A DNA stretch of 64,000 nucleotides from the NCBI RefSeq assembly GCF_964204865.1, contig NC_135253.1, positions 14,508,001 to 14,572,000 on the forward strand. Reading direction: 5' to 3'. Under the pieces are notes generated by a model, which worked only from the letters and a program-made list of their open reading frames with translations, was not told the origin of the DNA and did not search any database. Shown here one piece after another: positions 3,600 through 44,904 of this stretch; position 1 is the stretch's first letter, and every line of letters starts with the position of its first letter. The position numbers were made by a program, and so were the translations under genes. Source of the DNA: Styela clava (Eukaryota).

Positions 3600-4445
3600 A
3601 TTTGACAATGTTCGTTTCCAAATCTGACACGCATTTCGCCATTCTTAACATGACACCCGTCAACCCACTGCCCTATTTCGCCCTCCTTAATCTGACACGC
3701 ATCGACCATATTTCATCATCTCTAACCTGACAGGAATCGACCCTATTTCGCCACCCCCAATTTGACACGCTTCGTCCGCATTTCGCCATCCCTAATCTGT
3801 CACGCTTCGACCGTATTTTGCCATCTCTAACCTGCCACGCTTCGACCGTATTTCGGCATCTCTAATCTGCCACCACGCTTCGACCGCATTTTGCCATCCC
3901 TAATCTGCCACGTTTCGACCGTATTTCGCCATCCCTAATCTGCCACCACGCTTCGACCGCATTTTGCCATCCCTAATCTGCCACCACGCTTCGACCGCAT
4001 TTTGCCATCCCTAATCTGCCACGCTTCGACCGCATTTCGCCATCCCTATTCTGCCACGCTTCGACCCCATTTCGCCATCCCATTTTGACACTCATCGACT
4101 GTGTTTTCCAAGCCCGAATTTGACAGGTACTAATCCATTTCATCAGCCCCAAATCTAAACACTTTGGCCATATTTCTTTGTAATTTTGAGGCAATTGTTC
4201 ATTGTTATCTGTATACTAAACAGCGCATTATGACAGTCGATTTTGGCAAAAACTGACAGCCATCGACCGCATTTTGCCATACCTAATCTGCCACCATTCG
4301 ACCGTATTTCGCCATCCCTAATCTGCCACGCTTCGACCGCATTTTGCCATCCCCAATTTGTCTTTTCGTCCCTATTTCGCCATCCCTAATCTGCCACCTT
4401 TCGACCGTATTTCGCCATCCCTATTTTGCCATCCCCAATATGACT
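3600..4445. repeat. GC-richer ~35-bp minisatellite
   Basis: Unit CTAATCTGCCACGCTTCGACCGCATTTTGCCATCC repeated with variants, interrupted at ~4150-4250. It abuts the truncated 5' end of the retrotransposon. Confidence 0.9.
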
Positions 4446-4470
4446 TTTATGCTACCAACCCTCCTCTGGA

Positions 4471-22538: not shown

Positions 22539-25500
22539 TCACTTTGCCTTATTCAATGCCACACTTCCTGTGTCGCACATTTCTTCAAAGTAATAACTTG
22601 ATGCTCGATCTTTACTTCTCCGAATGAAAATCCAATGGGAAAATGAAATAATGAGATAAAAGACATTTACAACGATATTTGCTGTAAGATAGGCAATCAA
22701 ATCTGTCTTCCTATTTATAGTACAAACCATACACTTCTCTTCGTGGTAGATGACATCGCATCTGAAACAAGGGAGAAATGCTCAAAACTTGGACACGAAA
22801 CTTACACATTGGTACCAACGCTGTAAGACTGGTATCCCAGCTGACAGAAAAAGATCTGCGAACAAGTGGAAAGCTATAAAAAGTATTTGCGCTTAAATAA
22901 AACAAATCATCTACATTTTGAGTAAGATAAATCGGGTGCTACAGAAATCGGAGCGGTTTTAAAAGTAAGAGTTATCTATCTAGTGGTTCTATTCATATTT
23001 AATTACTGGTAAATACCACCAGAAAAACAGCTATGGAGTAAGTGAATTTCATCAGTTACATCCTGAAATATTATTCATATCCTGGCCTAATACAGAAAAT
23101 TGATATTGTAGACTTTGTTGTGAACAAGCATGACATAAGAAACTATCTTCTAATGATAGAATCTTTGTAAGATTAATGCAAATACATTTGAAATCTGACA
23201 TGCACTAACCGAAAACTTCCGGAAGTCCAGCCATCCGATCCGAGCACGACAAGTAGCCAGGACGAAACAGCTAGGGACATAACCGAAACCAAAAATCCAA
23301 AAGCATGTTTCATCAAATAAGAACGAACAAGAAATATTCCGTTGAAATTTCTGTTGTTACACACGAGGCGTAAGATGCATTTCGTTTTCGATTTGCCAGT
23401 AAGCCCTTTACTAGAATCTTCTCGAGTTGTCATTGTGACTTTATACACGGATAAAATGTAGGGATGTTGTTCGAGTGAAGAGAAATTTTCAAAGCATAGC
23501 ATTGAGAACAAGTGCCGGTCCAGCATTTCGCCTAAGATTAATTTCCTCATGATACCTTGTTGCTGTTTCACCTATATATAACAAAAACGTAAGTAAAGAT
23601 AAAATGACTGTAATGGGGAAATGATGAAAATTTTACTTCCAAACACACGAAGTCAACCAAATCAAACTCTGTCTCGTGTTGTATACAGATACATTTACGA
23701 GCATAACTCACAGAAACATAATTTACTTACATTCGTCTCCGTGCCCTAATTATGTTATGTCACCTGTTGTAGCCTATATGTTATTTTGCTGGTAGGTGAA
23801 TTTTGGCATGAGATCGATCGGGTTAAATCTGCCTGTATCCAAGGAGCTTAGCAAATTTAAAGCTAATAAAGTTTCTTTCTGGCGGTGCACTCTCTCCAAT
23901 CAATACGAATAAACGAATCTTTTCCTATAACAGCGTTAAATATTCACAAATACTTACCTCGTTATCCGAGTTTATAGGAATAACACAATTGTTGTTTGAT
24001 TTGTTCGAAACATCATTTTTATCTCGTTTGTCAGTTTGTGCGTCGGCGTCGACAGGCGTGTCACCGTCGGCGGGCTTTTCATCGTTGTCGTTCTCAACCT
24101 TCGTGTGAGGTATATTGTGACTTTCTTGAACGCTGGTTGCACTTTTAACAGGTTCAACAGAACTTTTTAGCTCGTCACGTTTGTATTCAGGTCTATACTT
24201 CACCCAACCATCAAGAAAATAACTTTCAGAGTCATATGCGGAATTTCTGAAATAATTGTAACAAGGAAATAACACATTTTATGAGGAAATACTTATGTGC
24301 ATCACATAATAATAAGATGGCGCACAACCTGAACTCAGGTTGTGTACCCGGTTAGGGTTCAGGTTATGCGACATCTTGGTGCGCATACTTCAGGAGTTCC
24401 CAGATAATTTGTTTTTCTCTGAATTTTTTAGAATCTCAGCAATACTCCGTCCTAATTTACGTTTTCGTTTCGTGACGAATATTAGCGACAATGTTCAAGC
24501 CCTCTATTGGTACAGATAGATCATCAAAAAAATATTATAGAGGTTAATACAAATACCCTTGATACACTCCTTTTTCTTTCGGTTTCACTGCATTATAAAT
24601 GTCATCAAGCAAAAGTTTCATAAACTTTAAATGACCCATTAATCTTGCACCAACTCGAAAATGCCACCACACAGATGGAAGAGCAAATAGAAAAGCCTGT
24701 AAATAGAATAAAATGATTACATTCTTTGGTAAATAGAAGTGCTTGATTGTATTGCGAGGTTACTTTCTTAATGTTAATAAAACTGCAAGTCTAATTAAAC
24801 AACATTTAAAATCAACGAACAAGTATTTAAATCCGAATAACTTTGATTCCTTCTAACAGCTTATGATAACAACAGCTCAATAATTCGGTCGAAGCGGGTG
24901 CCTTCTCAAACTGATAAAGAAGTGTGCTTAGATTAGAGTATATAACAGAGGTGGGCAAGGTATTTGAACCAGGGGCCAAAAATTTTGCCCACTTAGACTG
25001 TCGGGCCAATATAGTGTGACGTAAAGAGTTACATTTTTGAACAATATTTACAGTGTTACAAAAGTAAAATTCTTTGAGCTGTCAAAATTTGGTTTCAGTT
25101 TGGTTGTGGCAGCATAAGGCGGGCCAGATTGAATAACCCAACTGGTCGAATTTGGTCCGCGGGCAGTGCTTTGCCCATGTCTGGTATGTAATATATTTCC
25201 ATAGTACATGTTCTAAATCATTTTTGACAAACGTTTTGAACATTTTACCTCAAATAACATTCCATAGGGCATCCATTGCAAGAATGATTTAAAAAATGAC
25301 GGATTTTGGAGCAAATTTTTCTCATTAAGATCGTTATGTTGTAAATTACAACTGGTTACAATGCTTGGAGTATTCATTTCATTAGTCGAAGAAACAGCGA
25401 ATGACTCCCAACAGAAACTCTTCGCATAAGCAATGAAACTGACATCAACTGTTATGTTTGACGCTGGGTAACACGAAAGTTTATCGCCTGCAAGATAATG

Positions 25501-25975
25501 AACTTTTTCAGTGGCAGTTAGCCCGTGTAGAATTTCAAGTTCTCTAGATCAGCTTTATCGATATTTTACGCCATAATACCACGCAAGTATCAATGTATGC
25601 GTAATGAAATATCTCAAAATAATAACAATTCATAATAAAACGAAACAAAAATATGAATTTCATATTATTATACAAACTATTCGTTGTGAGTTTAGGTTTT
25701 CTTGTACCGTTGATCTATAATACACATTTTTGAGTTTTTTTTTTAATTATTTCTTACTTTTATCATTTTAATCATCAAAATTTTAAATAAATCGAACTTA
25801 TCCACAGGAATATACCTACGACTTCCGAAAGCTTTGAAAGTATGGCCAGTAGTATAACTACATAAACTCCAATATAATGCAGTATTCGATCTGATCCAAG
25901 TTCGATGACAATTTCTTTTTCATGCTTCTGAGACGCCTGTTCCAGACCTTTTGTAGCTTCGTAAGGGTTAGACAT
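22539..25975 (-). CDS. Pannexin/innexin-like channel D (6 exons, ~470 aa)
   Basis: Exons 25975-25816, 25487-25249, 24696-24557, 24246-23958, 23571-23210 and 22761-22539; GT-AG, frame continuous over 1413 nt. Motifs IELGSDRILHYIGVY, KLSCYP...FCWES, WMPYGMLFEAFLFALPSVWWHFRVGARLMGHLKFMK and FRCDVIYHEEKCMVC. Confidence 0.9.
24315..24400. mobile_element. Partial palindromic MITE (same family as 3268 and 55460) in intron 3 of gene D
   Basis: Near-identical to 3292-3377. Confidence 0.75.
24946..25183. mobile_element. hAT-type MITE in intron 2 of gene D
   Basis: TIRs CAGAGGTGGGCAA / TTGCCCATGTCTG; TSD GTATATAA/GTATGTAA. The core CCAGGGGCCAAAAATTTTGCCCACTTAGACTG is shared with 58250-58510. Confidence 0.8.
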
Positions 25976-27476
25976 GATAAACTTTACTTGAATGCAAAAT
26001 AACAAATCGCCTAAGTTTCGATTTATATTTCTTTTAAGAAGAATGAGAACCAGAATACCGGATCAGGCAATAGCTTGATCTAAGATTTTTTTGTCACTTC
26101 AGAGGAGGTGGTTCTATACTCATACTCTACACTGCTCAAAGTTCTCGGTTGGTGTATTTCATTTCCAGTTGGCCAATCGTAATCCTTCAATATTTATGTT
26201 ATAAACGTTTGTATAAACGATCTTCTGCCCACTTTGCTACTTTTATTATTCCGGAAATACAGTGCCGATGATTCAATCCTCTCCTACTTGCACAATCATT
26301 AAGATTATTCCCAGACTTGTGCCATGTCTATATTTACCAAGAACACTCTTAATGAAAACCGTGTGTTCATACTTGATCGTGGATATATTAAAAATTGACT
26401 ACTGGAGTCAATGAATAATTCAGAAACCAATGTGTCATGGAAGCATTCGATCGAATGCCCAAGACGAAAGAGAATAGCAACGAAGAAGTAAAGAAAGTGT
26501 AAAATACATTAGTTCCTCGTTACATGTTATGTAGATCTTAAGTAATACATATATTCTTTAACCTCATACAAGATTTCTGATTTACTTTATTTTTAAATAC
26601 TTTTATAAAATTTTCTTTTATTCGAGCTCATGCACCCTATATCATTATACATACAAGGCCTCTCCTAATAGACAAGAACGAAGCCCGTTCAAAAGCAATG
26701 TCATGATTGGATTATAACGTGAATTCATTTGCAATATTTAACATGAGACCATTAATTATGTTGCGAAAAGAAAAAATAAATTGACAAATAATGGTCTCCT
26801 TTCGAAGTACTGGCATAATTTAAAGATCCAAACTTAGCAAACGGAGTTACATGTTTACGACAGACTTTTAGTCTGTGGTGAGAATAACTAAACTTAAAAG
26901 TCGTTCCAAGCAGATGAAAAAGCAAAATGAATGATACATTTTAAAACTTTAGCAATGAATTGATATCATACAAATAAAATATTTTTCGTTGTTTTGTAAA
27001 GAGTTGCAATCGAACTCGGAAATTTGCAAACTTTCAACTTCGATTCAGAAGGATAACTTTGAAAGATTAAAAAGAAAAGGTTTGATGGACATAAAATGGC
27101 TCCTTGTGTAACACTACAGTCTCGTTACCGTTTGAGGTTTTAAATATTTCATAATAAAGTTTGAAGTCACGTTCGAGCAATAATCAACCTAACATTGCAT
27201 TATTTTTTTTGTTTAAATCTTAAAATTGCCTCAGTTTGCTTAATATCTATACATTCTGTGTATTTGATTTTCATATGACAATCTTACAATCATTTTATCT
27301 CTTAATAACAGTCGTAAAATATACCACAACCATTAAACCATTCTTGTTAAAAACAAATGTAATTTAGCTTAAAGCGCAATGTAAAATTATAAGGAATGCC
27401 ATCTATTTTAAGTTATATAAAACAGATTTTTCTAGCAGTATTTCACAAAAAAAAAATACAATTTAACAAAGTCATT

Positions 27477-29361
27477 TTAGAGAAGAGATACGACAAATGT
27501 TACATCATCTGTACCGTTTACCACGGCATCCATTACTTTAGCTGAAGTGACTTCTTCCTCTTTCTTTTCGCCGGATCTAAATTTTATTGCATACAAAGCA
27601 CGATCTTGTGTGTATTCGTCTGGAAGCGTCCAACCCGGATCAGTGATACCTAAATGGCATTAGACAATTCCGTGTAATTAATGTAAATTTTTGTAACTAC
27701 ATTTTCACGCACTCAATGGTTTTCAAGAATCATGTCAGAATGTTTATGAAATCCTGCTTAAATTTTTTAGTATTTATATTTTTTTCGACGATAAACGAGA
27801 AACTATTTTTGCACAGAAGCATGTTGATGAATATTATTTGAACTTTGTTATTTATCTAGATTCTAAAATCATTCTGATAGAACGAATTGTTTTCTATCCA
27901 CAAAAAAAAAAAAATTAAATTGAAAAATATCGATGATGATAAACTTAATTTAGTAAATTGAATCAGTTTTATGCATTAAAATTTCTTTCACAATTACACA
28001 GTCTTGTCTGAGCAGGGTCACTCTCTCTGGACAAGCAAATTCTCAAATTATTGCCAAGCGTTTTTTTGCAGATAGCCTAGCCCTAGATGAGAAATTGCTA
28101 TCGCACTGTCGAGACAAGATTTGAGTAAAAATTGAAAGCAACTAATGGTTAATATAACAATAAAGTGGAAAAATTGAAGTTTGAATCAAAAGTAGATTTG
28201 GAATATCAGGAAAATCAATTTAAAATTTATATAAAATCCTCTCGATGTTATTTTATTGAATGTCATGGATATTTACTGAAATCTGAACGTTATATTTTGA
28301 AATAAATTACATACAATTCTCTTCCATAGGAATAATCTATGTGAATACTGGTAATGAATATTCAACATACTTTTGACCAACTCCATGTTCCAACCTTTGT
28401 TCTCAGCCGGGCAGATTTTATAAAGTCTATAGATTCTGTCCGAAAGATTTTCAGTTTGCAGACAATCGGCCAATGCATCATCGGGAAGCTTGATTTTCTT
28501 GTTATCCTTGTTTATCACTATAGGCATGAATTACGGAACCGTAGTTAATATTTGACTTTATGCCGTAAAAAAAGAAATCAGTTGTCTCATGAAAAATTGT
28601 CTGGGTCGAAGAATTCCAAACAGATGCTCACATCAAATATTGGTTCATGATCGCCACCAAGAGGCGGTATGCTAAACAGTTTGGATTTATACAAAACAAC
28701 AGCGTTAAACAACTTTTTTATTTAACAAACTTTTCATCAGACATGAGGTGGAACTTATTGTTGCAGTTTTGTTATCACTTGTCTGAGTAACTACTGGATA
28801 AATATCAAATTTTCAATAAATTTTATTTTAATACTTATTCCAGTCTCACGTGACTTAACTTTTCATCCTTTTTGATGATTTGTTTTGATTCATGGGAACA
28901 CTAGGTTGACTTTCAACTTTTGCGTCCATATATTAAAGCATTACAGTTTAAAGTAAAAAATAACCGAAATTACTGTCAATCAAAACTAGTTTCGACAGCT
29001 CTTTCTCTCATAGCAAATATGGCGAACTTTGTTCGAGTAAGTTACAAAAATACAGCCGAACTAAGTTAATAACAGCCAAGGTTTCATAACTAATTCAAAT
29101 ACAACTCCAATTATAAAAGCTAAAAGATTTCTTCAAAAGCATTGCTATCAAACTCATTCTTCAATTACTAAATTCTTCTTCAAATGTAGTTGAAACAAAA
29201 TAAAACCAAGATGACAGACCGACATTATCAATAAAGCTATTAACTGACAAAGGCAGTATTTATTTTGGTTCTTTTTAGGTTTTTTACTTCACACTATTCT
29301 ACTTATATATGTTATTAAGTCTAAAAGCGTTTTAATTACAATACTCACCAAAGAAATCCAT
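27477..29361 (-). CDS. Uncharacterised small protein X1 (3 exons, 110 aa), paralog of X2
   Basis: Exons 29361-29349 (ATGGATTTCTTTG|GTGAGT), 28517-28371 and 27649-27477; phase-1 GT-AG introns; 333 nt open. MDFFVINKDNKKIKLPDDALADCLQTENLSDRIYRLYKICPAENKGWNMELVKSITDPGWTLPDEYTQDRALYAIKFRSGEKKEEEVTSAKVMDAVVNGTDDVTFVVSLL. Same exon structure as X2 and about one-third identity to it. Confidence 0.82.
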
Positions 29362-32300
29362 GTTCTTTTTTAATGAACGCTGCTGTTGAACTAATTAAAA
29401 TGTAGCCTACTATCTGTCAGTTACACACATTATGCTATACTCATGCAAAATGAAAACTTATATACTCGAGAAAAAAAGGATTAAGAATCAAGATCATACT
29501 AAAAACAGGAAGAGGATATTATTTCAGGCTATAATAATAATCACTGCCATAAGCTGCCTCAGTCTTCAGTTTCTAAGTTAGTTTTGTATTATTTGTAAGT
29601 AGACCGAGAATTATAAGACTTCTGAGCGTGGTCCTCCTGTTCGGGGGTCTAAATCTAAAAATATTTATGACATATAAACGAAAATGTATTTAATTAATTC
29701 CTGAAGTACAGATTTACAAACTAGAACAACTTAATTTTAGGAGTATTTATATCTTTAGAAGTATCCGTTATCTGTTTTTCATAAGTGGTGATCAACGCTT
29801 TATTAACTAAAAATTTAAATACTTTTTACAACTGGCATTCAGCCTGTCTAGTCGTGTATATAATAATAGACATTAACTACTATATCTAAGCCAAAAACCT
29901 CACGATACCATACTAGTTTTTCGCAATTCAGTGAGGGATTTGAAATCATAAATATGGATGGAAATATGAGAGGAAACTGCAACCTTTTTCAGTCGTAGGA
30001 AATTGAGACTGAATTGGTTATCTCATATTTTATCAGATACAAAGATTACGTTTACAGTAAAACTTTTAAATTATATATTCATAAGACTTATATATGCACG
30101 CAATCTGTAAAGATTATCTATCCCTTTCTTTTTGCCCACTAATGGCAGACTGACTTTTTATAAAATGATATGAAATAAAATTTCGATGTCCTAAATGAGA
30201 AATCAACACAAATTAAATTAGGATCTTCGTAGCATGTTACAAAATAATAAGTAAAACTAAAGTATTTTCCAAAGATTTTACCAAACTTATCAACACCAGT
30301 CGCGTAAAATATAATCTTATTCCTGTAACTAGCGAAATATCAGAATGAAATTGACGTTAAAAAGGGTTACAAAAATGAGGCGTATTCAGTTAAATGTTGT
30401 AAGCGCATGAAAGCTACCGCCAGTTTTTTTAAATACAATCATACTTAACAGAAATTTGTTAGACTTACATTACAGATACACTTGCAACTGGAACAAAAAA
30501 CTCGCATTTTAAAACAAAAATCTCATTAACGCAACACTTCAATTTACAACGACCAGTATGTTTGCAATACATTGCATATGCCCATCGACATCTTCCCTAG
30601 AGGCCAAATTATTTTCACATTTAGCTCATACTTCGGACTAATGATCGTTAAGCTTCGTCTTGAACAGAAAATTGGTAGCGCACTAGAGTTAGCAATGGGG
30701 ATGAATTTATGATTCGGTTTTCCTCACCGTGTTTAAGCGCAGCAACAGTTGGAAATCCACCACACTGCGCACAACTGGATGGAACGAGAACAATTCCTCT
30801 GGTCAAAAAAGGATGATTGACTATTAAAAAATTGCATTTTTGGTTCGTCTCCTCAGCTCTACATTTTCATATGATTCAATTCATATTAGACCGCGTATAT
30901 AAATCATCCTATGTATTTTGTACACGAATACCAGATTTTATTATTCTTCAGCAATTCTATTGTCGTTGTATCTTTTATCTCAATACGCGACAGCCTGCCT
31001 ACTAACCAAGTTTCAATAAATTCTAGTCTAGGTTAACCAGTGATGAATGAATCGCATTGTAAGTCAATAATAATACCAATGATCGACCCTATTATACCTG
31101 TTATGGTTGAGCGATGAGCGAGATGCTTGGATAGTTCACGTTAACAAAATATCATGAAAAATACACGTTAGTTTGAGAACATCTCCTATGCTGTTTCGTT
31201 GTTCGTTCGTTTCGTTCTCGTTGTAAAAACGCTGTAAAGTGTGTTTACTTTTATTAAGAAAAATATCGTACAGCAACCATGATCAAATTGTAAATATCAT
31301 TCTTATATACAACGCAAGCGATGACGCCTCACAGGCAGAAACGCTCACATAATGTATTGTCGGCCTTTGGGGTATATGGCCAATGAATTTCATCCTTCAT
31401 TACCAAGCTTACCTTGAGTTCAAATCAAAAACAACTAGAATCTACTTCTTTAACGAAGTCCAACACGGTCTAAGGTAATCTTCCTCCAAAAATATTGAGC
31501 TCCATGTATAAAAACATTACTTTCAAGAACTGTACTTGTATTTTATGACAAGTTCGGGTCGTATATGCGAGAAGATAACTATTTAAATGAAAGTGGCTGA
31601 CGGTGGAGGCAACCGCCCGGCGGTTTGGTGAAGAGCTCTTGTTACGTATACCATCTTGCGCTACAAAGTTGCTAACGGCAGTCTTCCAAAATATTCATTC
31701 ACAGACACATTATTCAGCAAGCCAATAATAGAAATTCAAAATGCTTGTATTATACTGTTTAACGGGACGATATCTTATCATGTTCTTCGTAAATAAGAAA
31801 ATCGATTTTTCAATGACAACAAAGCAACCAGGTAATTATTAATCCTACACGAATATAATTTTGTCTTACAGGCTTTCGTTTGGATAAAAAATCGATAGTG
31901 ATGAACAGGCGGTGTAAATAGAGAGGATTACCCATTCTCCATGAATAACTTTAAAATTATTCAAGATATAGGTACAAATTTCAACAGTCCATCATATTTA
32001 TGTTTAGATAGTTATTCGTGGCAGATGCTTGTTTGTGAGCATGTTACGGAAAAGTCCTTATTATATGGCGATTCATCATTTTAGAATTAGAGAAAGATAG
32101 TTATCTTACCTCATATTGCATTAAAATCATACTAAATTTAGTGAGATTTTATATTAATTAAATATCATTAGATCACCACAAAAGTTGGGTGGAATTAGGG
32201 ATGCCGAAGCTCAGTTCAGTTTGGATAAGTAATACGAACAATTGAAAAGAATCAAAGTATTATATTAGGGATATTTTTTACAAGGCCTCACCCCCATAAA

Positions 32301-33060
32301 AAACAGCCAACCCTCAAAATATGAAAATTAGTAATTATTAATTTAGGTTTTAGGTTAGGGCTAGGAATGCAGAGATTACTTCTTGACTGTGCGGCGTGAA
32401 ATTCAACAACAACCATCTAATTAACAATTAGGTAATGCGGCATATTGTGATATATAAGGTAGTTCAGTTATCGCTTGCTGTTGAGTTTGTAGCTGATGAG
32501 TTTCGAAACCATATTTTATCACAGACACCACTCAATAAGTCAATATTAAGTAAGCCAATCACCAGCATTAATTGTGTTGTATTGGGAAATGTTCAAACTG
32601 TTTATACTTTATAGAGTTACGTTTGAATTTTAATCATTTATCCGTAATTGTACCGGATATATTTACCATACTAGCAAGCTTCCTCCAAATAGAAGTACGG
32701 ATACGAATGCGCATAGAATAGGTATTACTGGTACATTTTTATGAATGATTTTGCCGGATCAAACCCCTTTCACTCTACTCGGTTACTACATTTTTTTGAG
32801 AAAACTTCTAACGAGTTTTGCATAACGATCAGCTGTGGTTACACAAATACATTTCTCTAACTAACTTAATTTGACCTGACTTCTATATACAGTCATATTT
32901 TTGACAAAAAAGCAATGGTATCACGTAAATAACGGAGATCACATTGGTGAATTTGTTTTTATACGTTTGTGTTATATTGCGCATCAGGACTCTTGGATCA
33001 CAAACAATCTTTCTTGTTATTTATTTTTATGAAAATATTTCCTGAAATATTAGTTATTTC

Positions 33061-33420
33061 CAGGCTTGTCCATGAGACATATTTTTCTGTCCTATTCCCA
33101 TCCCATGGCAATTCTGCCTGTCCCACCCCATCGCATTCCCATCCCAGGCTTAGCGTCTACTAAAATAGGACTACATGTACGAATAGACATGCATAACAAC
33201 AAAATTTACGGACTTTTTATTTAACTTTATATTCATAAATATTATACGTGTGCTGAATATTTTTGAATATATTTTGCTCTTTATAACTAACAAGAGAGCT
33301 AGGCTCAAATATATGGACACGAGTTCCATAACGAAATGTTTTACCATCATTTCCCCGAAAATCATTCGTGTCCCATGGGAAATACAAATGTATGCTGACC
33401 CATCCCATTGGACAAGCCTG
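33061..33420. mobile_element. hAT-type MITE, TIR CAGGCTTGTCCA
   Basis: TIRs CAGGCTTGTCCA / TGGACAAGCCTG; perfect 8-bp TSD GTTATTTC; ATCCC subterminal repeats; second copy at 42390-42837. Confidence 0.9.
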
Positions 33421-36400
33421 GTTATTTCTGTATAATTCAGCGTTAAGTATGAGGCCCTATATACCACTCGTTTGCATTATTGGACACGTAGTGGACATAA
33501 CGATCGTTTCAATATTATGTTGTTCTTGTTGTTTGACACAGAATAACACACCTAGTGGAAATATTAAAAAACCGCTTTTCTCTTCGAATACTGGACCAAT
33601 TGCTTTGAAATTTTCAGTGGTTGAAGATAAAATTTTCCCCCAGAAGGCTATTACTTTTATTCATTTTAAATATTTCTGTTAAATAGCTCTGTGAGATTTG
33701 TTTTTGTTTGCTATGACATCATTAAACGTTCTGCGGACATCGGACGCCATTTTGTGTCCTACTGTACTGCATTGCTTGGTGTGAATATATTTGTAGACTG
33801 TGATCTGACGGTACGGTAAACCGTACTGTACTGCGAACAGACGTGTCCATATATTTGGGCGTAGCTCTCTTGTTAAATATCTAATGAACATCCACATCTT
33901 GAGATCTTTTTCACTTCGAGCATATTCGCATTCATTTCCACCTCTTTCCTTGTAGTGGACTTTTTGTTTTTGCAACATATTTTGTGTCAGTTTAATACAT
34001 ATATATACCAAATACATACCATGAAAATTCCAGATATACATATAAAATAAATGCTGGAAATTCAACTGTAACAGTTTGAGGTTTGTTACTTTGTTAACCA
34101 ATTTTGGAAATTCAACCAATCTCTATTTCAAATTTATCTGTTTAGATTGTTTGAATCTTTTATATCTAACTCGTTAATTTATCTACGTGGAAACGTAGTG
34201 ATTTCTTATTTCACGTAGGAAAATCAACTCCATGTTTTAGTCTGACTAAGTTGGCTTGTAGTAGATACTTGGGTCGAACAGTACGATCAGAAAAAGCTAC
34301 TCCAGGCGTAGCAAAGTAATACGAATAGATTAATAGTGGTTGGTATCTTTACTGTTTCTTGTCGGATGCGAACAATACCATTTGCAAAATAATTCTATAA
34401 TAGGATTTTGTGACTTTTTTTCTCGAGCGCAAGGATCTAACATTCAGATAAGAGTAAAACTCACACCCGGATAGAAAAATGTGATAAAATAGCATGGATA
34501 AATGCAGGACATACACAATTTTAGTTGTTGTCCATACTTTCCTTAACCGATAAGCTTTTCATATTTTGCATTATCTGTTTTAGATTTATTTTATAATTAG
34601 AATCTCAGTATATAGTATTGTTTGATGGCGCTTGAAAAATAAACTTTCTTTGCCATATATCGGTAGTTCGCTTCTAATCGTACTCCTTCAAGTGAGCATA
34701 TGTTTGCAACTCAACATTTCAATTATGAAGATATTTATTATTACAGCAGTAGATCGCAAGACTGTATGTTGCATCGTGGGATATCCGGCAAATTTCCATT
34801 CGTATCATATTACTTCCAAGCAATGGCGTCATTCGATTCATTGCATCCAAAATTGCATTATTGAGAACGCATTTATGACAGCATGTTCCGAAACATTACG
34901 TACCAATGTGTAATGTCAGTGCAGTAAATAGTGATTAATAAAAAAAATTCCTGAGGACTAGCAGTGTGGTCACATTCTTCTACGTATATACATATATATT
35001 ACATTTTATAGTATGTATATATGATTTATCTTACATATTATATTTTCTATACATCCATGTGGCGATGTTCGCGATAGTTCTATGTGTCCACTTTCGGCGC
35101 TGTTGTGCGATTAGTTAGCGTACCATTTGATGCTGGGAGCTATCATCTACATTCTACGTCACACAGGTATTTCTGCTTACTAAATAAGAGACAAAAAACT
35201 TTACAAGATAAAGAAAAAAGCTATTAAGTACCACCTGTAGTCCACTTCTTCTGTTGTTATTCGCTTACAAACTAACCTGCGAATGAAGTCCGCTTTTGTA
35301 GACGGCGCTCTGAGGGTTAGATGGGTAATCAGATGTTTTGCGCCGTTAGGATGCCGTTGTTGTTGCCTGGGAAATCTTATACAGCTTATATCAAGCCTAG
35401 TAAATGCTTTTGAAAGTCAATTTAAATCTTGATCAGTTTAACTCAATTAGAGTCGATTTATTTTGCGTCTTTCAAACATCGGCGAGAGAGTAAATCAATT
35501 ATGACGATATTTTTGGACCGGTAGTAAGGTTGAGGTTTTTGAAAGCTCCTATATGAGGTGATATTTTTGAAAGCGTCTATATGAGTTGATATTTTTCCTC
35601 TCAGATAATTTTTTTTGTGAAATCAAATGAGGGTGGATCGTGAGAACATAAAAAAATGAATATATTGTGCTCACATCTAAAATACATGTCCTAACTGAGA
35701 GAACGGGATACAGTAGACAGATGCCATTATTCGGACTGAATACTGTTTGAGGCTTGGATGCTGAAGCAGACAAAAATAACGTGACCTTTGCAACATCTTG
35801 GTGATGGATTAAAAATGAGAGCCATATGAAGAATTCTGACATTCTTTTTATTCCGCGGTACTAGTTCGGAATCGTTTTATGCAGTAGAAAATATGGAAAT
35901 AAAACCGCTATAAGCACCAGTGAAGGTCACCGACAAGACAGGAACTTTTTAAGCATAATGATTTCTGATACCTGAAGAGTCCGCTCAAAGGCGATTTACT
36001 GAATGCTGTGCCGAATTATATACTGTATTATATAAATCAACTATGTATTTTAACTGGGCGACTGTGTCTTCCACCTGCAACCAGGTACTCACAGCACTAT
36101 ATAGTGTTGTAAAAAACTACCAAAAATAATATTAAATTATGCGATTATTATTAATAATTGTGATATTCAGCTAGTGTAGACTCATATTATTGCATCACTG
36201 AACATGTGTTCATATTGCGTGAGCGTGATTTGACTTAAACTGTTCAGATTGATAATGAAATCAGAAAGACGCAGTGTAGACTAATAAAAACGGATGTAGA
36301 CGTCCGAGCTGTGAATATGCTATTGAGCTTGCTGCAGCGACAGAAATGTGGGCGATAAAAATCGAATCCTTGATGATCGTTTAACATTATTTGGTACTAG

Positions 36401-37049
36401 GGCCTACAAATTATACGAAGTGAATGCTAAAATAATTTTTGAAAGGAATTTAATAAAATGTTTGACCAAAGGCAGTATTATAGGTTCCATGCGAGTTTAT
36501 GAGTGTGGTATTTGTTACCAGGCGTAGATCAGTAATGCAGAGATACAAGAACATTTTCCGTACGCCGGTACGTGATAAATGAAAAAACTAAAGGGTATTC
36601 AATCTTGTTCGACATAATTCTTCTCAAAATAAACCTCCAATTTTCCCAAAATACACCTCCATTAATACCATCTATTTGATGTCTATTTTAGCAATACGCA
36701 TGTGCGTGCTCTCCTTAAATTATTCTACTCATACCTGCGATATTGCTGTCGTTTTTCAGATGAATTTTAAACAAAGTTAAAATAAATTCACATGTTAGTG
36801 GGAAGTACGTACACCCTTTCTGTGACCCTAAAATAGTCTTTATTTAGTCTGTAATTTGTTTGTTCATTTCAGTTTATTCATTGTTTGTTTGATTTTTTAA
36901 ATTGAGTTGTTAATCAACAGTTTTTGTCAAGTTTAAAAATATACTAAGATATATATTATAATTTAGATTATATTAAAATATTCTATTATCACAATCCGGA
37001 CTTGTTGAAAGGCCGTTGCCAGCCAACTCTAAATTACCACTTGGTGGAG

Positions 37050-38126
37050 ATGGAGTTCTACAGTAAGTATAAGTTTAACATAAGCAACCATCAACCTTCT
37101 ATAAAGTCCAATCATAAAGTTGCAAATTTTCAGATTATGTGTAAAACGGGACGTTGTTTTCTTAGTGATCTTTTCACCTTATCGACAATCTATCCAATTT
37201 GAGCTATCCATCAAGTTGAACAGATCTAGTCTTGTGCAACTACCACCAATATCTACATGATTTTTTCACTCATGAAAACAGATTAAGGAGATGGGAACCC
37301 ATGGAAATAACCTAAAAATATATCTTTTTATCTATAGTGGAAAACAAAAATTCTGTCCGAGTGAAGATGCCGGAAGACGAAGTAAAAGTTATAAAAATAT
37401 TAGGAAGAAACAATCTTCCCGATCGATTATTCGCACTGTACCTGATATGCCCGGAAAATGATGGGGATCAGTGGAATCAGCGTAAAACCAAAGGTAGGCT
37501 TGACTATACGATTGAATTCTTTTTTGCCGTTGCGAGATTGCCTTGTTATATTTCACGATTACAACAGTTTGAATTGTTTGCGATTTCGGTAGTAAAGCTC
37601 ATTCGATTATTGCATTTGTGCACTACCGTTATATTTTACGTTTGCCTCAGCTTATTGTGAAATTTGCATTGTTTTCTTGCTATAATGGTCTCACATATGG
37701 TCGGCAGTAGCAGTCTGAGGCGTTAAAGACAGCAAATCATATGTATATTGAAAGTATTTCACAAGTGTTTGTGATTTTTTGTTTTTACCACAAGCTATAA
37801 TGAGCTGTTATCTGTACTATAAAACAAAGAGTACGTTCTGATTGGGGTCAACTAGATTTGGACTTTCATTTATTTGTTTGTGCGTATCACTCCTGCCCAG
37901 TTTTCTGTGAATTTATTCAATTTTCCATTCTTTGGTTTCAGCTATCACTTCTAAAGACTGGGATCTTAATAAACTGACACCGGAAGAAAAAGAACAGCGA
38001 GCAAGTTACAGGGTACAATTCAAGTGTGGCGAGACTGAAGCTGATGCTACAAATGACAAAGTGAAAGGTTTCATTGTAGACACTGATCATGAGGATATGA
38101 TGTACTTCGTGATCTCGCGAAAATAA
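37050..38126 (+). CDS. Uncharacterised small protein X2 (3 exons, 117 aa), paralog of X1
   Basis: Exons 37050-37062 (ATGGAGTTCTACA|GTAAGT), 37338-37493 and 37942-38126; phase-1 GT-AG introns; 354 nt open. MEFYMENKNSVRVKMPEDEVKVIKILGRNNLPDRLFALYLICPENDGDQWNQRKTKAITSKDWDLNKLTPEEKEQRASYRVQFKCGETEADATNDKVKGFIVDTDHEDMMYFVISRK. Confidence 0.82.
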
Positions 38127-41100
38127 AGACCCTTGTTGATCAACCCATTATGCTTGTATTTCATATATAATTGTGTTAAAAACTTAGTCTTCACTTATAT
38201 CTGATTCAGACCAATGATATCGCCACTGTCCAGTAAGTGACCTTACATGGTGTCATACTGACTTCATGGCATCAAAACGTACAGTACTGCAAACTGTATT
38301 ATATTTTATTTGATTATGTTACTATTGATACTTTTTAATATTAATACGAAACCATGATGATTCTGTCTTTATAAATTGAAAAGTATTTGTATTGTTCACA
38401 ATTTAAATTTACTTCCCAATATTTCCACCATGCGTGTTCTATATTTACTGTCTTGCCTTTCACAAGACGGAACTTTCGGCGGTGTTTTTGTGAGAGCGAT
38501 TCGGCCTGACAATATTAGTACGGTCTTTTATCTTGTGTGCATTCAACCATGAAGTAGCTGATAGTTATCACAATACAATTTCGTTTTAAAGTCGTGTGAA
38601 TGTATTTGCGTTTTGAATTTGGGTAATATTATCGATAGAGAGATGTATGTGCGCAGCTTTCGTTTTGATCTTGAACTTTTTGAGATGTTTGCTGACAGTG
38701 CTTATTCTAGGCTGCTGAAATTATGTCACTATCTGCCTAAAATGTACCAGTTGTCAGGACAATTCCCCTGGGAACTCATTTGATAAATTGAAGTCGTGAA
38801 TTATGGATTGAGCGGGAACATGCGAAATGTATGCGTATCAGGAAGAAAGCGTTGTTGCCAAAGTTCCATTCGTCACTGAATCTGCCTTAATTCCTCTATT
38901 TCTAATGCAGGTGTATTGATATGACCAGTTATAGGGTAGTTATTCATTTTTACATTTGAATTTGGTCATAGAAGTTAATTAGTGCTAGCCATTTTATTAT
39001 TGAGTGAGTTTCCAAACATAGGATGTTGTTTAGACCTATGTATATAGCCAGTTTGAATAAATCACCCGTTTGAAATTCTACCTGAAGTGCATATGTATGT
39101 TACAATATTGTAAGTAGGATCTCCTATTGAAGTACGTACATTATTGCGTTTGCTCAAATCAAAGTCAGCGGGAACTCATCCTCATGCACACTGGAGTTTT
39201 AGGGATATTGTCATCGCGTTCTTTTTTATCGAGTATTTGTACCCGAATGTCAATCGTCAATGTTATTTATACTGAACCTACAAATGATGACTTTTCGGGG
39301 TCAAACAATGGTATTGCTAAATTTAGGCTTAAGAATGTTTCAATTTTTTTTATTCTCGATTATATTCCTACATACTCAACCTGCGGATACACAAATAGGA
39401 AACAGGCAAAATTTGAAGCGTCAATTATTTTCACCTATAAAACTGAAAGTTTTCTCTCGTAATTATGTCTCAATTTATGAAACCTAGATAAATGAGAACC
39501 AGCATAAATTATGTTGAGTTATATTTGGAGGGTGACTACTAACTAGTATAAAGCTTACTACACAGTGAAAATGACATTCATTCTTGGTAAATGCTACATA
39601 TGGGAGATAAACAATTTAAAATTAATATTGTCGCTAACGCAGGTACAAATGTGGCAATCAGGAAGTGAAAATACCGAATCACGACGTCAATATGGCGGAC
39701 ATCATTTATCTGGTCCAGGACATGCGTTTAAAAGCATTTCAAATGCAGATTTCAATTTATCATTTTGTTTGCATCTATATATATTCAGTCTAGACAACAC
39801 TATAAATTGCTGCGATGTTTATTGATTTTGAAAATCCCAACAGAAATACTGCAGTAGTATGGGCTGTTGTCTTTTTATGTAACAAGTAATTGAGTTTTGG
39901 TACGCTCCACTCATATTATATCGCATGTTTTTATTAGGTCTACTCTGGGAATGATATAAATGAATCTGGAACAAAAAAGAGTTTGGGTCAAGTGTGTGCC
40001 ACCGTTAAAATATAAACAACAGTAGTTACAGAATGCTGTAAAATTCAGTGTTACGTTTTCGATTATCAGTATTTGCCTTCAAGGCAAAATAAATTAAATG
40101 CGTTCTACACATAACACAGTCCATTTCTTTTTTAAACGTGTCATGTTGTAATGCCTCATCAACTCAACTGTAAAATTAGATTTATGTTATGTCAGCGTAA
40201 ACAATACAGCATTTTAGAATGCTGTGACGAGAAACCACAATTTTTATTGTTAGGCTGTAAAAAAGTATGTCGAGTAGATTTTGATAATGTGTAATCAGTT
40301 TCACTTGGCCCATGCGTCAATGCGTCATTTTATCAATGGCGCAGACCTAATATTGTTTGATTTGACCGATGTTATGAACTGTTTCGCTGAATAAGAACCT
40401 ATTTGTTATTAGATCAAACTTTGCCACAGGCATTTGCACAGAAGCAATGAACCGTGCGTGTGATGCAGCCAAGTCAATCAACCAAGACAAATACTTCACG
40501 ATAACCTTTTTAGACAACAACAGTTTGAAATCCCTATGCAGGGCCTAACGTATGAAAAATCCTATCAAAGAGTTACGTGGGTAATTTTTAATGTGTTCCA
40601 ATTCGTACGCCGTATAATGGTTTATGAGCCTTGTATCAATTTGCAACAGGAACATACATTATATTACAATTTGCTGCATTACTGAGTTCAAGCGAAATAA
40701 GCATTCACAATTTCACACACATTCTGTTGGGAATGAGCTATACATGAATGTGGCTATCAAGCCCTTTTCGAAACACTGTATATTCTAATTCTCATGCAAA
40801 CATTCCTCCATCATGTCGCTAACTTTTTTTCAAAGATTTACGTTACGTTGAGTGATATATATACGTTTGGTATTGTGCAAATTGATGGTGATGCGCGACC
40901 ATTGCATTAGCTCTGACTGATACGTGTTAAACTTTTTATGCCAAACTCTCCCGTTGACGGCTAACACGGAAATGTATGTTCCAGCAGAGGTGTGTGTTAA
41001 CGTGGTACGATCGTGATTGCTTTTATTTACTACTAGGAAATAGTAATGATGTGGCACTGGCTGGAAATACGCTAGTGGTATAATTAGGAGATAGGTCGAT

Positions 41101-41234
41101 ATAGATAGAACTATACTATGTCCATTCTTTAATAGCAACTTTATGATTATCAGATTAACTATTATTTATTGTAATCTACACGAATGGTGTGATATCAAAA
41201 ACTACCATCACCATTAACTGAGTTGTTGGGGACA

Positions 41235-44200
41235 ATGGCGAGCGCTTCTGAAGTTGCCCAAGGACTTGAAAATGCTTCTCAGAAACAAGAAAAAGAAATT
41301 GTAATCGAACTCGGATCAGATCGAATTTTGCATTACATCGGCGTTTATCTTGTACTATTTCTCGCTGTAGTATCTAAGTTATCAGAGGCCATTGGTAGGT
41401 GAATGTATGAACATTTTGAGTATGATATTTTAAAACGTTTCTAATAAACTCTGTATCTTTCAGCCATATTACTTGACCTATATTATACAGCTTTGCGCAG
41501 TTGTTTATTGTGGACTGTGTTGTCCCTTTGTTTCACAATGCCAGAACGAGTTCCCCTTACTTTTGTTTGAAGTAAACTATGCTTGATAAAACAATATTCA
41601 TTTCATTCTGAAAGGTCCCAATTTATCATGTTACCCTGCTGGGAATGTAACTGTGGAATCAGATTTCATTTCGTACGCAACATCATATTGTTGGGAATCA
41701 TCGAATGTGTCATTGTCAGAAACCAACAGCAACGGCAACAACAACGCTTGTAATGTGGATACAAACATTTCTTCAGAAAATCTTTTAAAACATCCATCAT
41801 ATCTAAAGACATTTCTCCAATGGATGCCTTATGGGATGATAATCGAAGTAGGTGTAGATTTCGCCGCTCTTGGAACTGTTAATTGTTAAAATGTTCCCTG
41901 TTTGGTTAGTTACCCCTTTCAATGCATAGAAATGAATAACTTTAAAAATATATCAGAAAAGAAGACTCAAATTTACGCGTAATGACTCACATAAACTGTT
42001 TTCTTTCAGAAAAAGAAACAGCTTTCGATGAAAAAAACATAAATATATGAAATCGGCTAACTACGTATACTTCAGAAATCTTACTGAAAAATATGCTCCA
42101 TTTTAATCTTTCTTAAATCATATAGTAGATAGAAATAAATCATAGGGAATAACTCACCCAATTGGATATTATGAAGATTCTATGCATTAAATAAATCATA
42201 AAACATATTCTAAATTGTGAAATTTTTCTCAGGCTTTTTTTTTTGCGTTGCCGTCTGTTTGGTGGCATTTCCGTGTCGGTGCTAGATTGATGGGACATTT
42301 GAAATTCATGAAAATATTGATAGACGATGTCTATGAAGTTGTGAAGACAAAAAAACGAGGAACATATCGCAAGTAAGTAATATTATTTACAGGCTTGTCC
42401 ATGGGACAAATTTTTCTGTCCAATTCCAATCCCTTAGCAATTATGCCTGTTCTATCCCATCTCATGAGATTCCCATTGGAAGAAAATTCAATAAAAAATT
42501 TTAAATCCAGGTTTAGCGTCTACTAAGTAAGGCTACATGTACGAAGGGACATGCAAAACAACAAAGTTTACGGTCTTTGTTAACTTTATATTCATAACTA
42601 TCATACATGTGCCCATCAGCCCCTTCACGAAGTATATTGTTAATGCTGAATATGTTTTGCTCTTTATGACTAACAAGAGATCTATGCTCAAATATATGGA
42701 CACGAAGTCCATCACGAAATGTTTTACCATCATTTCCCCAAAAATCATACGGTTTTCGTGTCCCACGTATGCCATGGGATATACAAATGTGTGCTGTCCC
42801 ATCCCATCCCATGAGACGTTTCCCATGGACAAGCTTGATTATTTAAAATTATGCAGGTTTATAATAATTACTTCATAAAGATACACTCGCATTATTGTGT
42901 TCTTGAGGCTCTATCAAAATGTTTGATAATAAAATACAGTATTTCGTGGCTCATTTCTAATTAGACTGCACAGAAATCTATCAATTATTACTTTGTTTGC
43001 AGTGCAATACTCGCAAGTTTTTTTTTCACAAACTCCTTCGTGGCTTTTCTTCGCCAATGACACAAAATTTTTCTCATAAATCCACCCAACAAATATCACA
43101 CTTTTACTATTTGTCATGGCATTCTCTTTAGAGGTTCAACCTATGACAGTCGGAGCTATTATTTGGATGGATGGAGCAGCTATGATCCACAATACAAACG
43201 ACAAGGATTAGACTCAGATACTGAATCTGAATCATCGGATCCAGAAGATTCGAATCCTTCTCCAAACACTGCAACAGGAATCAGACAAAGGAATGGAAGA
43301 AATGTCAATTCTGACAGTGCAGAAGACGCACCGCTCGATTCATCAAAAAAAGCTGCTGGTCAGTTAGAAGAAGTCTCAAGTCATGCTAATCCCTCAGCTT
43401 CAAGGATACAGCAACGCAAAAATACACAGAAGGTCAAAACGAAGAAGGTAGAAGTATGCGGGTTTCAAATAGAACTATAATAATTTTTAGGTGCTATAAT
43501 CTTTTTGATTCATTCCTTATTTATTGAAAATCAAACTTCAGCATTATCACTGTACTGAAACTAGTAATTGATATATCATAACAATTTTAATTTCTCAGAA
43601 AAGCATGGAGGACAGCTGGTACGTTCGATTATTTTTCGGTAACATGCGCGATAGAAATTTATTTTCTATGCTTTGCTTCGAAAATTTTGCTTCACTCGAG
43701 CAATATCCTTACATCTTGTCCGTGTACAAAGTCACCGATATTGAAGAAGACAAAAAGGATAAAGATTTGATAGGACCGAAGACTCAGTGTATCCTGCGAC
43801 TTGTGTCAAATCAAAAGAACATGAGTGGTCGTTTCCTAATAAAAGCATATCTTCTCAAACATGTTTTTGGCTTCCTTGTTTCCTTATCTGTACTGGCTGT
43901 GACTGCGTGGGTTCTCGTGACAATTGGATCTGATGGATGGACTTCTGAAAGCTTCCAGTGAGTATAGAATGTAATTATTGTAGTTTAGTAGTGATTTAGG
44001 AAGCTTTACTGCCAGTACCCGTAGGATCCAAAGTAGCAATTGCTACTCAGCCATCTATTTACATTTCAGGCCGTTTTGTACTTTGTTACTTTATACGCGA
44101 TATCCAATTTGGTTGTTTAGTTGCCAATCGTTTCGATCAATCTCATACAGTGGATGAATCCTAACTTTATGTGGAAAAGTAGTGAATAAATTACTTTGAC

Positions 44201-44904
44201 CTTGGGGTACCGATCCCCATAGTTGGAAGCTTGTGGAGGTGTTGAAAAGTTTCACAGAGGGCGAAAAAATATAATAGCAAATCCTTGTCTCGGTGTCGAC
44301 TCCTAAAATTACATCCCGGTAACAACTCACAGTTCCGACAGAAACACGTATAAGTGAAATTGGTAAAGGCAACGGAAATGAAACTTGGTGCGCACTTTTC
44401 CGTGCAAATATATATTGCCATTAAAAACGAAATTCACTTGAATATAATACTATACAAAACTGTACCCTACAAAGGTTGCTAACCCCTAAAAGTACTCAAT
44501 TGCTAGAAAGCATTTTACCTTATACGGCCCATCGGGCGTCTATGCCTTCCAACCAATGGCCGATATAGTGACGTTAATTATAGCTTATTTTATATTTTGG
44601 CGTTTTTGTTGTTAAAAGTTGTTTAAATCGTAAATATGATATCTAATATTATTTTTGTTTTAGGTGTGACATCGCCTATCACGAAGACAAATGCATGATT
44701 TGTACTCTGCATCGGAAGAGAGACATGATCGCATTTCTCGTGGTTAACCTGTTAGTGAACTTCGCATATTTACTTCTCTCTGTTTCCCAATGGATATTCA
44801 TCCGAAGAAGTGAGAATCGCGCAACTTGTTATTACCTGGAAGACATACGAGATCTCGGCAGTGTTGCGTTGCACCAAAAGAAATGGAAAAAGGGAGGAAA
44901 CTGA
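41235..44904 (+). CDS. Pannexin/innexin-like channel E (6 exons, ~482-484 aa), closest paralog of D
   Basis: Exons 41235-41394, 41615-41847, 42233-42372, 43132-43453 (alternative donor 43447), 43599-43957 and 44664-44904; GT-AG, frame continuous. Motifs IELGSDRILHYIGVY, NLSCYP...YCWES, WMPYGMIIEAFFFALPSVWWHFRVGARLMGHLKFMK and FQCDIAYHEDKCMIC. Confidence 0.9.
42390..42837. mobile_element. hAT-type MITE (same family as 33061) 17 nt into intron 3 of gene E
   Basis: TIRs CAGGCTTGTCCATGGGA / TCCCATGGACAAGCTTG; perfect 8-bp TSD ATTATTTA. Confidence 0.9.

What the first reader, a model, noticed from the sequence alone, without database searches (positions are those of the whole stretch)
27477..38126. 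Unrecognised 110-117 aa protein family (X1/X2) with a 13-nt first coding exon and possible beta-grasp fold
Seen in sequence: both genes have a 13-nt first coding exon (MDFF / MEFY) and two phase-1 introns at equivalent positions. Conserved blocks are NK...K.P.D, NL.DR...LY.ICP, WN....K.IT...W.L, RA.Y...F..GE and FV.S. Identity is only about one-third by manual alignment, far lower than between D and E. There is no signal peptide or TM segment, and I do not recognise the family. Inference (weak): the pattern of N-terminal beta-hairpin (MDFFVINKDNKKIKL, compare ubiquitin MQIFVKTLTGKTITL), helix, Y.I.F strand, short helix and terminal strand (VTFVVS) resembles ubiquitin-like/PB1-type beta-grasp domains. 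There is no C-terminal diglycine, so an adaptor is more likely than a conjugated modifier.
Basis: partly seen in the sequence, partly recalled or inferred. Interest (0 to 1): 0.72.

Follow-up and report, generated by a model that had tools for sequence, protein, structure and literature searches.

The report
Sea-squirt orphan pair with variable tail
The sea squirt Styela clava has two real, spliced, related genes for small proteins of no known family, each sitting just upstream of a probable large-pore channel gene; they likely act as cytosolic binding partners, and one has a short end region that varies strongly between copies and animals, but the proposed ubiquitin-like fold is unproven.

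Summary
X1 (110 aa) and X2 (117 aa) are paralogous Styela clava genes with 13-nt first coding exons and two phase-1 introns. All four junctions appear in transcript-type contigs. X1 is absent from the protein collections, and no relative outside Styela was found.
The beta-grasp idea is neither confirmed nor refuted. X1 alone aligns weakly with ubiquitin and Elongin B, in another register than proposed. X2 and joint profiles do not, both AlphaFold models are unusable, and a PLAT-domain lead is equally weak.
New here: each gene lies head-to-tail before one of two sister innexin-like genes, which suggests a duplicated two-gene unit. X2's last 30 residues are hypervariable, with 13 of 13 listed substitutions changing an amino acid, while exon 2 is invariant. 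Most likely these are fast-evolving cytosolic adaptors with a diversifying tail; the function is inferred. The scan had no note on this DNA.

The parts
29349..29361 (-). X1 coding exon 1 (13 nt, MDFF plus one base)
   Evidence: GT donor; junction 29349/28517 in 4 of 4 runs; in-frame stop 12 codons upstream (sequence)
29362..29466 (-). X1 5' UTR with a probable spliced-leader acceptor AG at 29466-29465
   Evidence: One contig of run X1 begins with 21 unlaid letters before 29466 (record 2); AG at that place. The letters were not shown, so this is inferred
28371..28517 (-). X1 coding exon 2 (147 nt)
27477..27649 (-). X1 coding exon 3 (173 nt, with stop). Codons 87-108 differ between the window and all 4 RNA-type runs by three amino-acid changes and one inserted codon
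26500..27476 (-). X1 3' UTR; it reaches at least 26500, towards gene D
   Evidence: contigs continuous with exon 3 in runs X2, X3 and X4 (table 8)
22539..25975 (-). Gene D, innexin/pannexin-like, directly downstream of X1 on the same strand (ATG at 25975)
   Evidence: the family label is weak (Pfam Innexin in 3 of 6 paralogous exons, best E 0.026)
36965..37049 (+). X2 spliced-leader acceptor AG (36965-36966) and 83-nt 5' UTR without ATG
   Evidence: 17-nt loose 5' end in run X1; the 17-mer has 426 exact genomic matches; 3 of 6 inspected continue with the six letters that fit the junction, 1 of them followed by a GT donor
37050..37062 (+). X2 coding exon 1 (13 nt, MEFY plus one base)
   Evidence: same start as the RefSeq model of the second copy, P0002
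37338..37493 (+). X2 coding exon 2 (156 nt), invariant in all versions seen
   Evidence: 0 differences in the contigs of runs X1, X5 and X7 and in the second copy
37942..38126 (+). X2 coding exon 3 (185 nt, with stop)
   Evidence: identical to RefSeq P0001
38028..38103 (+). Hypervariable segment of X2, codons 86-111: 12 of the 13 listed substitution sites plus an in-frame deletion, all changing the protein
41235..44904 (+). Gene E, innexin/pannexin-like, downstream of X2 on the same strand; closest paralogue of D
35130..35166 (+). Upstream exon used only by the 157-aa RefSeq model of X2; probably not part of the main mRNA
   Evidence: located; it joins at the same AG that takes the leader-like end

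Best explanation
X1 and X2 are real, spliced, paralogous Styela genes for small soluble proteins that likely work as cytosolic binding adaptors, possibly for the innexin-like channels encoded directly downstream of each, through a conserved core and a C-terminal tail that is likely under diversifying selection. Shown: gene structure, splicing, paralogy, long-term constraint on the protein, no detected relative outside Styela, the D-X1 / X2-E mirror arrangement, and the excess of amino-acid changes in the X2 tail. Inferred: (1) the two pairs arose by inverted duplication of one X-plus-channel unit; (2) the proteins are cytosolic and beta-rich; (3) the invariant core binds a constant partner and the acidic tail a variable one (pathogen, allele or paralogue). 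The link to the channel rests on position alone. My odds on the fold: beta-grasp about 0.25, PLAT-derived beta-sandwich about 0.2, something else about 0.55.
For: Real genes: junctions; RefSeq models of X2 and of its second copy; between X1 and X2 synonymous sites are saturated (pS 0.82) while pN is 0.40, and the tail keeps 10 of 29 identities. Soluble: hydropathy at most 1.19, pI 4.7 and 5.5, tail pI 4.2 and 4.5. Pairing: D and E are each other's closest paralogues among the 5 innexin-like genes of the window, with the same saturated pS (0.81) and lower pN (0.23). No X-like exon was found near the other innexin-like genes in 354 kb of C4 or 70 kb of C9. Tail: 13 of 13 listed substitution sites are nonsynonymous and 12 of 13 fall in 76 of 351 coding nt (P about 1e-7). 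In run X1, 9 differences in exon 3 against 0 in exon 2 (Fisher P 0.004) and 4 in 445 nt of 3' UTR (P 0.003); in run X7, 12 in 117 nt against 0 of 154 and 0 of 595. Control: the two cluster copies of D and E differ at 17 of 1811 coding nt, 8 synonymous and 9 not (P 0.004 against 13:0). Two of the tail variants also stand in another RefSeq version, P0003.
Against: No binding, localisation or protein-level evidence exists. 13:0 alone does not reject neutrality (P 0.058), nor does 19 of 20 for X1 and X2 together (P 0.069). X2 against its second copy alone (5:0) is not different from the channel control (P 0.12). The variant tables were cut (55 and 53 rows hidden; 9 of the 12 differences of one run-X7 contig and 1 of run X1 are unlisted), so synonymous changes may be hidden. 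The contigs may mix alleles with paralogues. The channel label is weak: below Pfam's cut-off, and these loci were not returned by a genome search with the innexin family. The gaps to the channel start codons are 1.5 kb and 3.1 kb, and a shared transcript is not shown. The other innexin-like genes have no X neighbour, so the channels do not all need one. The X1 copy in the duplicated cluster is broken.
Confidence: 0.35

Rival explanations
1. A highly diverged ubiquitin-fold protein (residues 1 to about 80-86) with a 30-residue tail: either an Elongin-B-like non-conjugated adaptor, or a single-glycine modifier precursor whose tail is cleaved at the conserved Gly (X1 G80, X2 G86).
For: X1 anchored to ubiquitin scores 30 against -6.6 +/- 9.3 (1 of 600 full, 0 of 600 block and 0 of 100 circular shuffles), and ubiquitin itself ranks first among 24 Styela ubiquitin-like domains. 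Against Styela Elongin B: 5 of 5000. Real-ORF windows: 0 and 1 of 1326. 14 of 15 hand-picked ubiquitin core positions are hydrophobic or Pro in both proteins (register chosen after the fact). The variable region begins at the conserved Gly.
Against: X2: 186 of 600 against ubiquitin and 4039 of 5000 against Elongin B. Ubiquitin-like HMM: 1551 and 1591 of 2000 shuffles score as well; hhalign probability at most 0.3%. Joint test 119 of 400. The Atlas feature search shows no ubiquitin-like cluster among the rows it lists. Intron phases differ from Elongin B (0, 0, 1 against 1, 1). A G86R variant stands in 2 of 6 RNA-type runs and the tail is conserved between X1 and X2; both argue against a disposable pro-peptide.
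Confidence: 0.25
2. A degenerate, perhaps circularly permuted PLAT/LH2 beta-sandwich that docks on membranes or on a channel's cytoplasmic face (roles of PLAT domains in lipoxygenases and polycystin-1 are from established knowledge; those names are).
For: Atlas features: first hits 0.85-0.86, with 10 of the 10 best named hits sharing the PLAT family or clan (one source of evidence). X2 58-87 matches a 9-sequence Styela PLAT C-half HMM (24 of 3000). hhalign against 75 PLAT domains gives P 0.016, or P 0.0043 with a doubled template that allows permutation, against P 0.7 for the reversed template and 0.34 for doubled ubiquitin-like domains.
Against: Atlas scores under 0.9 are leads only, and a third of shuffled proteins also give 10 of 10. 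With the 75-sequence HMM, X2 is matched by 391 of 3000 shuffles and X1 by 1677 of 3000; hhalign probability is only 3-8%. Joint test: 160 of 400 linear, 31 of 120 for the best permutation. Different tests give different registers. Pfam lists no PLAT match.
Confidence: 0.2
3. An ordinary taxon-restricted gene pair whose position among the channel genes is passive: it was carried along by local duplications, and the tail varies through relaxed constraint or a patch copied from an unassembled paralogue.
For: The region is full of recent duplications and rearrangements, and the second X1 copy has lost exon 3 and has exon 1 inverted. The nonsynonymous-only pattern does not by itself reject neutrality. 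No X gene lies beside the other innexin-like genes.
Against: Relaxed constraint cannot raise the substitution density well above the flanking UTR and introns (9 in 76 nt against 4 in 445; introns 6 in 723 between the copies). Two different changes hit codon 100. A patch from a diverged paralogue should carry synonymous changes, and none is listed.
Confidence: 0.3

Closest known systems
RefSeq Styela clava LOC120326241 (XP_039248433) and LOC144422262 (XP_077968388), uncharacterized proteins
   Same: LOC120326241 contains X2 letter for letter; LOC144422262 is the 116-aa copy about 86 kb upstream with the same MEFY start.
   Different: LOC120326241 adds 40 N-terminal residues through an upstream exon, while a leader-like end at the same acceptor favours the 117-aa form. 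X1 has no entry, though it would score E 5.6e-10 in the search.
Ubiquitin and Elongin B (Styela copies, loci L042 and L086; Elongin B confirmed against PDB)
   Same: X1 aligns end to end from Met1; Elongin B has a similar length (114 aa) and also a domain-plus-tail layout.
   Different: X2 does not align; no profile match; no diglycine; other intron phases.
PLAT/LH2 domain (PF01477)
   Same: Similar size; local motif resemblance around X1 W60 / X2 W63 and the strand before the conserved Gly; nearest named Atlas clusters.
   Different: No significant whole-domain match; it would need a permutation or large deletions.
Polymorphic ascidian individuality and allorecognition genes (Ciona vCRL1, Botryllus Fu/HC locus; passages of PMC5465252)
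   Same: Works-like comparison only: ascidian genes with high variation between individuals.
   Different: vCRL1 is a complement-receptor-like protein with CCP domains; X1/X2 are small, soluble, and vary only in a short tail. No sequence comparison with BHF was made, and Styela clava is solitary (recalled).

Membership tests
Ubiquitin-like (beta-grasp) superfamily | Beta-grasp fold in a confident model or structure | tested here: inconclusive
   AlphaFold2 mean pLDDT 38.7 and 39.6. The second model's order beta-beta-alpha-beta fits at the N terminus, but it puts a helix where the last strand should be.
Ubiquitin-like (beta-grasp) superfamily | Profile match to ubiquitin-like families | tested here: not met
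   No Pfam match at E up to 10 for P0001 and P0002; own 24-sequence HMM and hhalign negative.
Ubiquitin-like (beta-grasp) superfamily | Collinear similarity to ubiquitin over the whole domain in both members | tested here: inconclusive
   X1 yes (1 of 600; 116 of 5000 without the first 15 residues), X2 no (186 of 600; 3116 of 5000).
Conjugated ubiquitin-like modifiers | C-terminal diglycine or an invariant processing glycine | tested here: not met
   No GG. One shared Gly (X1 80, X2 86), replaced by Arg in the contigs of 2 of 6 RNA-type runs.
Conjugated ubiquitin-like modifiers | Activation by an E1 and covalent transfer | not testable with these tools
   Needs biochemistry.
Elongin B | Sequence and gene-structure kinship with Elongin B | tested here: not met
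   Styela has its own conserved Elongin B on C9. X2 does not align and intron phases differ; X1 aligns only weakly.
PB1 domain | Acidic OPCA motif (pattern recalled, not from a call) | tested here: not met
   Strict pattern absent from both; a loose five-residue match in X2 only. No Pfam PB1 match.
PLAT/LH2 domain | Significant whole-domain profile match | tested here: inconclusive
   hhalign P 0.016 / 0.0043 with probability 3-8%; HMM and joint tests not significant; Atlas lead under 0.9.
PLAT/LH2 domain | Eight-stranded beta-sandwich fold | tested here: inconclusive
   Models too poor (the Atlas's own model has pLDDT 0.33).
Taxon-restricted (orphan) gene family | Expressed, constrained coding gene with no detectable relative outside the lineage | tested here: met
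   Only Styela hits, none; the one other hit, P0004, is a sum over six repeats of a 27-residue match. How well other styelids are covered in these collections is unknown.
Spliced-leader-resolved ascidian operon (X upstream, channel gene downstream) | Same strand, no intercistronic DNA, downstream gene trans-spliced (passages of PMC1488885) | tested here: inconclusive
   Same strand is met.

The most novel reading that the evidence does not exclude
X1/X2 are dedicated accessory subunits of a Styela-expanded innexin/pannexin-like channel family, co-duplicated and perhaps co-transcribed with them. An invariant core (possibly a circularly permuted PLAT or a degenerate ubiquitin fold) docks on the channel or membrane, and an allele-specific acidic tail under diversifying selection sets what opens it. 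That would make a polymorphic sensor-plus-pore module for pathogen or self/non-self signalling in an invertebrate chordate.
Probability: 0.07. Interest if true: 0.8.

Novelty: new member of a known kind. Interest (0 to 1): 0.4.

Why it matters
At face value this is a well-supported but ordinary orphan gene pair. It adds one unannotated gene (X1) and a probable correction to a RefSeq start (X2). It is worth a second look for two reasons. A 26-codon segment that varies only by amino-acid change beside an invariant exon is the pattern of host-pathogen or self/non-self proteins. And the genes are tied to a cluster of innexin-like genes, although most tunicates are reported to have only one innexin (passage of PMC8769644). 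If X proteins bind these channels, they would be a new kind of polymorphic channel regulator.

Tried and rejected
Searches with no relative: Pfam on exons and full-length X2; word-index searches (only P0001); all 50% representatives (2 hits, P0001 and the repeat artefact P0004); PDB by sequence (best E 0.045, IglE, partial, rejected).
Fold: two AlphaFold2 models under pLDDT 40. Foldseek found 0 matches at E up to 0.001. VIA-align found 0 of 48161 chains at Z 5 or more for either model; one PB1-type domain at Z 3.6, rank 28, is meaningless. A complex prediction of the X2 copy P0002 with Styela Elongin C gave no verdict (score 0.00, partner fold uncertain); it is no evidence either way.
A 22-residue match to X1 exon 2 on C14 (L005, E 0.18) lies on the opposite strand in what looks like an intron of another gene, with unrelated flanks: rejected as chance or a scrap.
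The upstream RefSeq exon (35130-35166) had no cover in the 6 RNA-type runs laid; contigs cannot show absence. No run is on record as RNA; the label is the tool's guess.
Rfam: 0 matches in 26000-42000. A bacterial promoter scan was irrelevant. PDB profile searches for the channel exons found nothing. No scan of metagenome or prokaryote contigs for X itself was completed; those scans went to collecting PLAT domains. Of those 120 loci, 75 passed the length, uniqueness and Trp filters. Of 30 ubiquitin-family loci, 24 were kept.
Literature: no paper holds LOC120326241 (0 papers). Styela clava with ubiquitin-like gave 1 paper, with innexin 1, Styela with pannexin 2, all unrelated by title and abstract start. 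The five-term ascidian search gave 0. The leader's sequence was not found in the three papers searched, so its identity rests and on recall. No supplements were read; the innexin source data of PMC8769644 may bear on tunicate innexin counts.


Full report
Observation. Paralogy is far beyond chance (score 167 against a maximum of 58 in 2000 shuffles); identity is 45 of 107 columns. Contigs of runs guessed to be RNA join both X1 junctions in 4 of 4 runs and each X2 junction in 4 of 6 runs; the DNA-like run keeps the introns. The organism is Styela clava: RefSeq P0001 contains X2 exactly.

Start sites. RefSeq models X2 with 40 more residues from an exon at 35130. A contig of run X1 instead carries 17 foreign letters just before 36961. 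That 17-mer has 426 exact matches in the genome and none in the window. In 3 of 6 inspected loci it continues with six letters that fit the junction up to the AG at 36965-36966, and in 1 of them a GT donor follows, as in a leader RNA gene; the other 3 look like a repeat family. Spliced leaders are established for ascidians (passages of PMC1488885, PMC3074122 and PMC7986045). X1 shows 21 unlaid letters at an AG at 29466, which fits the same process, but the letters were not shown.

Range. Three word-index searches and one full HMMER search of 1.84 billion representatives found only the Styela X2 cluster and one repeat artefact. X1 would have scored E 5.6e-10, so it is not in that collection. 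In the genome the family has the two window genes, an intact X2 copy (P0002) and a broken X1 copy, both in a roughly 97%-identical duplicate of the cluster 86-110 kb upstream. Synonymous sites between X1 and X2 are saturated while pN is 0.40, so both have been held as proteins for a long time.

Surroundings. The window holds five innexin/pannexin-like genes; the label is weak (3 of 6 paralogous exons at best E 0.026; not returned). X1 lies head-to-tail before D on the minus strand, and X2 before E on the plus strand. D and E are closest to each other and equally saturated at synonymous sites, but 63% identical. The simplest history is an inverted duplication of one X-plus-channel unit, after which X changed nearly twice as fast. 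No X-like exon lies near the other innexin-like genes examined. An operon is possible, since Ciona operons lack spacer DNA, but it is not shown.

Variation. X2 exon 2 has no difference in three contigs or in the second copy. Exon 3 has 13 listed substitution sites, all nonsynonymous, 12 of them in codons 86-111, plus an in-frame deletion. The clustering is significant against exon 2 and the 3' UTR and against the channel genes' copies (8 synonymous, 9 not, in 1811 nt). Against this: 13:0 has P 0.058 under neutrality, the tables were cut, and alleles and paralogues cannot be told apart. X1 shows 7 listed coding substitutions, 6 nonsynonymous; all 4 runs differ from the window in the same tail region by three residues and one inserted codon.

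Fold. AlphaFold2 failed twice (pLDDT 38.7 and 39.6). For ubiquitin-like domains I took 24 domains and Elongin B from this genome. X1 anchored at Met1 beats shuffles and real-ORF windows, in a register where ubiquitin ends at X1 G80 and the variable tail follows. X2, the HMM, hhalign and a joint two-sequence test all fail. The ESM Atlas pointed instead to PLAT/LH2 at 0.85-0.86, a lead only. With 75 PLAT domains hhalign gives P 0.016, or 0.0043 if permutation is allowed, but the HMM and joint tests fail and the registers are unstable. Both leads were chosen after looking, and neither survives its strictest test, so the fold is open.

Mechanism. The proteins are small, acidic and lack hydrophobic segments, so they are likely cytosolic. 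No catalytic family matches. A constant core with a diversifying acidic tail fits an adaptor that binds one fixed and one variable partner; the co-duplicated channel is the only candidate that position offers. This is inference (0.35). The rivals are a ubiquitin-fold adaptor or precursor (0.25), a PLAT-derived membrane docker (0.2) and a passive orphan (0.3); the fold rivals are compatible with the main reading.

Novelty. A new, so far Styela-only family, of the known kind of fast-evolving taxon-restricted genes in a birth-and-death cluster. Papers were seen as passages only or as listings; no supplements were read. Interest 0.4.

Noticed in passing
window 7510-44904; G000:C4:14392900-14552900; G000:C9:13751000-13753200: A cluster of divergent innexin/pannexin-like genes: five in the window, more in a duplicated copy upstream, one on C9. 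The first loop exon has three invariant Cys. A passage of PMC8769644 says most tunicates have one innexin. The family label is below Pfam's cut-off.
   Followed up: partly
G000:C4:14404700-14493500: A roughly 97%-identical duplicate of window 7-47 kb. It holds about five tandem 4.8-kb partial copies of gene E (exon 2 broken in four), repeated first exons of D, and an X1 copy lacking exon 3 with exon 1 inverted. It may be recent copy-number variation or partly an assembly effect.
   Followed up: partly
window 18537-19574: Innexin-like gene C has a 345-codon low-complexity, Ser/Lys/Glu-rich exon in its central loop, much longer than the matching exons of D and E.
   Followed up: no
genome-wide, e.g. 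L125-L130: The leader-like 17-mer has 426 exact genomic matches: one looks like a leader RNA gene, two like leader-headed inserts, three like a repeat family; many come in pairs 5-6.5 kb apart.
   Followed up: partly
window 33054-34005 and 42383-42875: A dispersed repeat between X1 and X2, covered by very many contigs in RNA-type runs, with a 72%-identical relative inside an intron of gene E.
   Followed up: no
window 3630-6138: A 35-nt tandem array followed by an integrase / DUF5641 fragment of a retrotransposon; described only.
   Followed up: no
window 53000-59700: Amino-acid permease gene of the SLC7 type (Pfam AA_permease_2, E 3e-4; the subfamily name is recalled).
   Followed up: no
L088:1399-1749 and L089:1402-1755: Two intronless Elongin-C-like genes, on C18 and C4 (the name rests on the Skp1_POZ match and recall).
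   Followed up: no
L051-L056, L059, L060, L067, L068: Clusters on C5 and C14 of three-domain ubiquitin-like ORFs, most ending in RGG, resembling ISG15/FAT10-type modifiers (the comparison is recalled).
   Followed up: no
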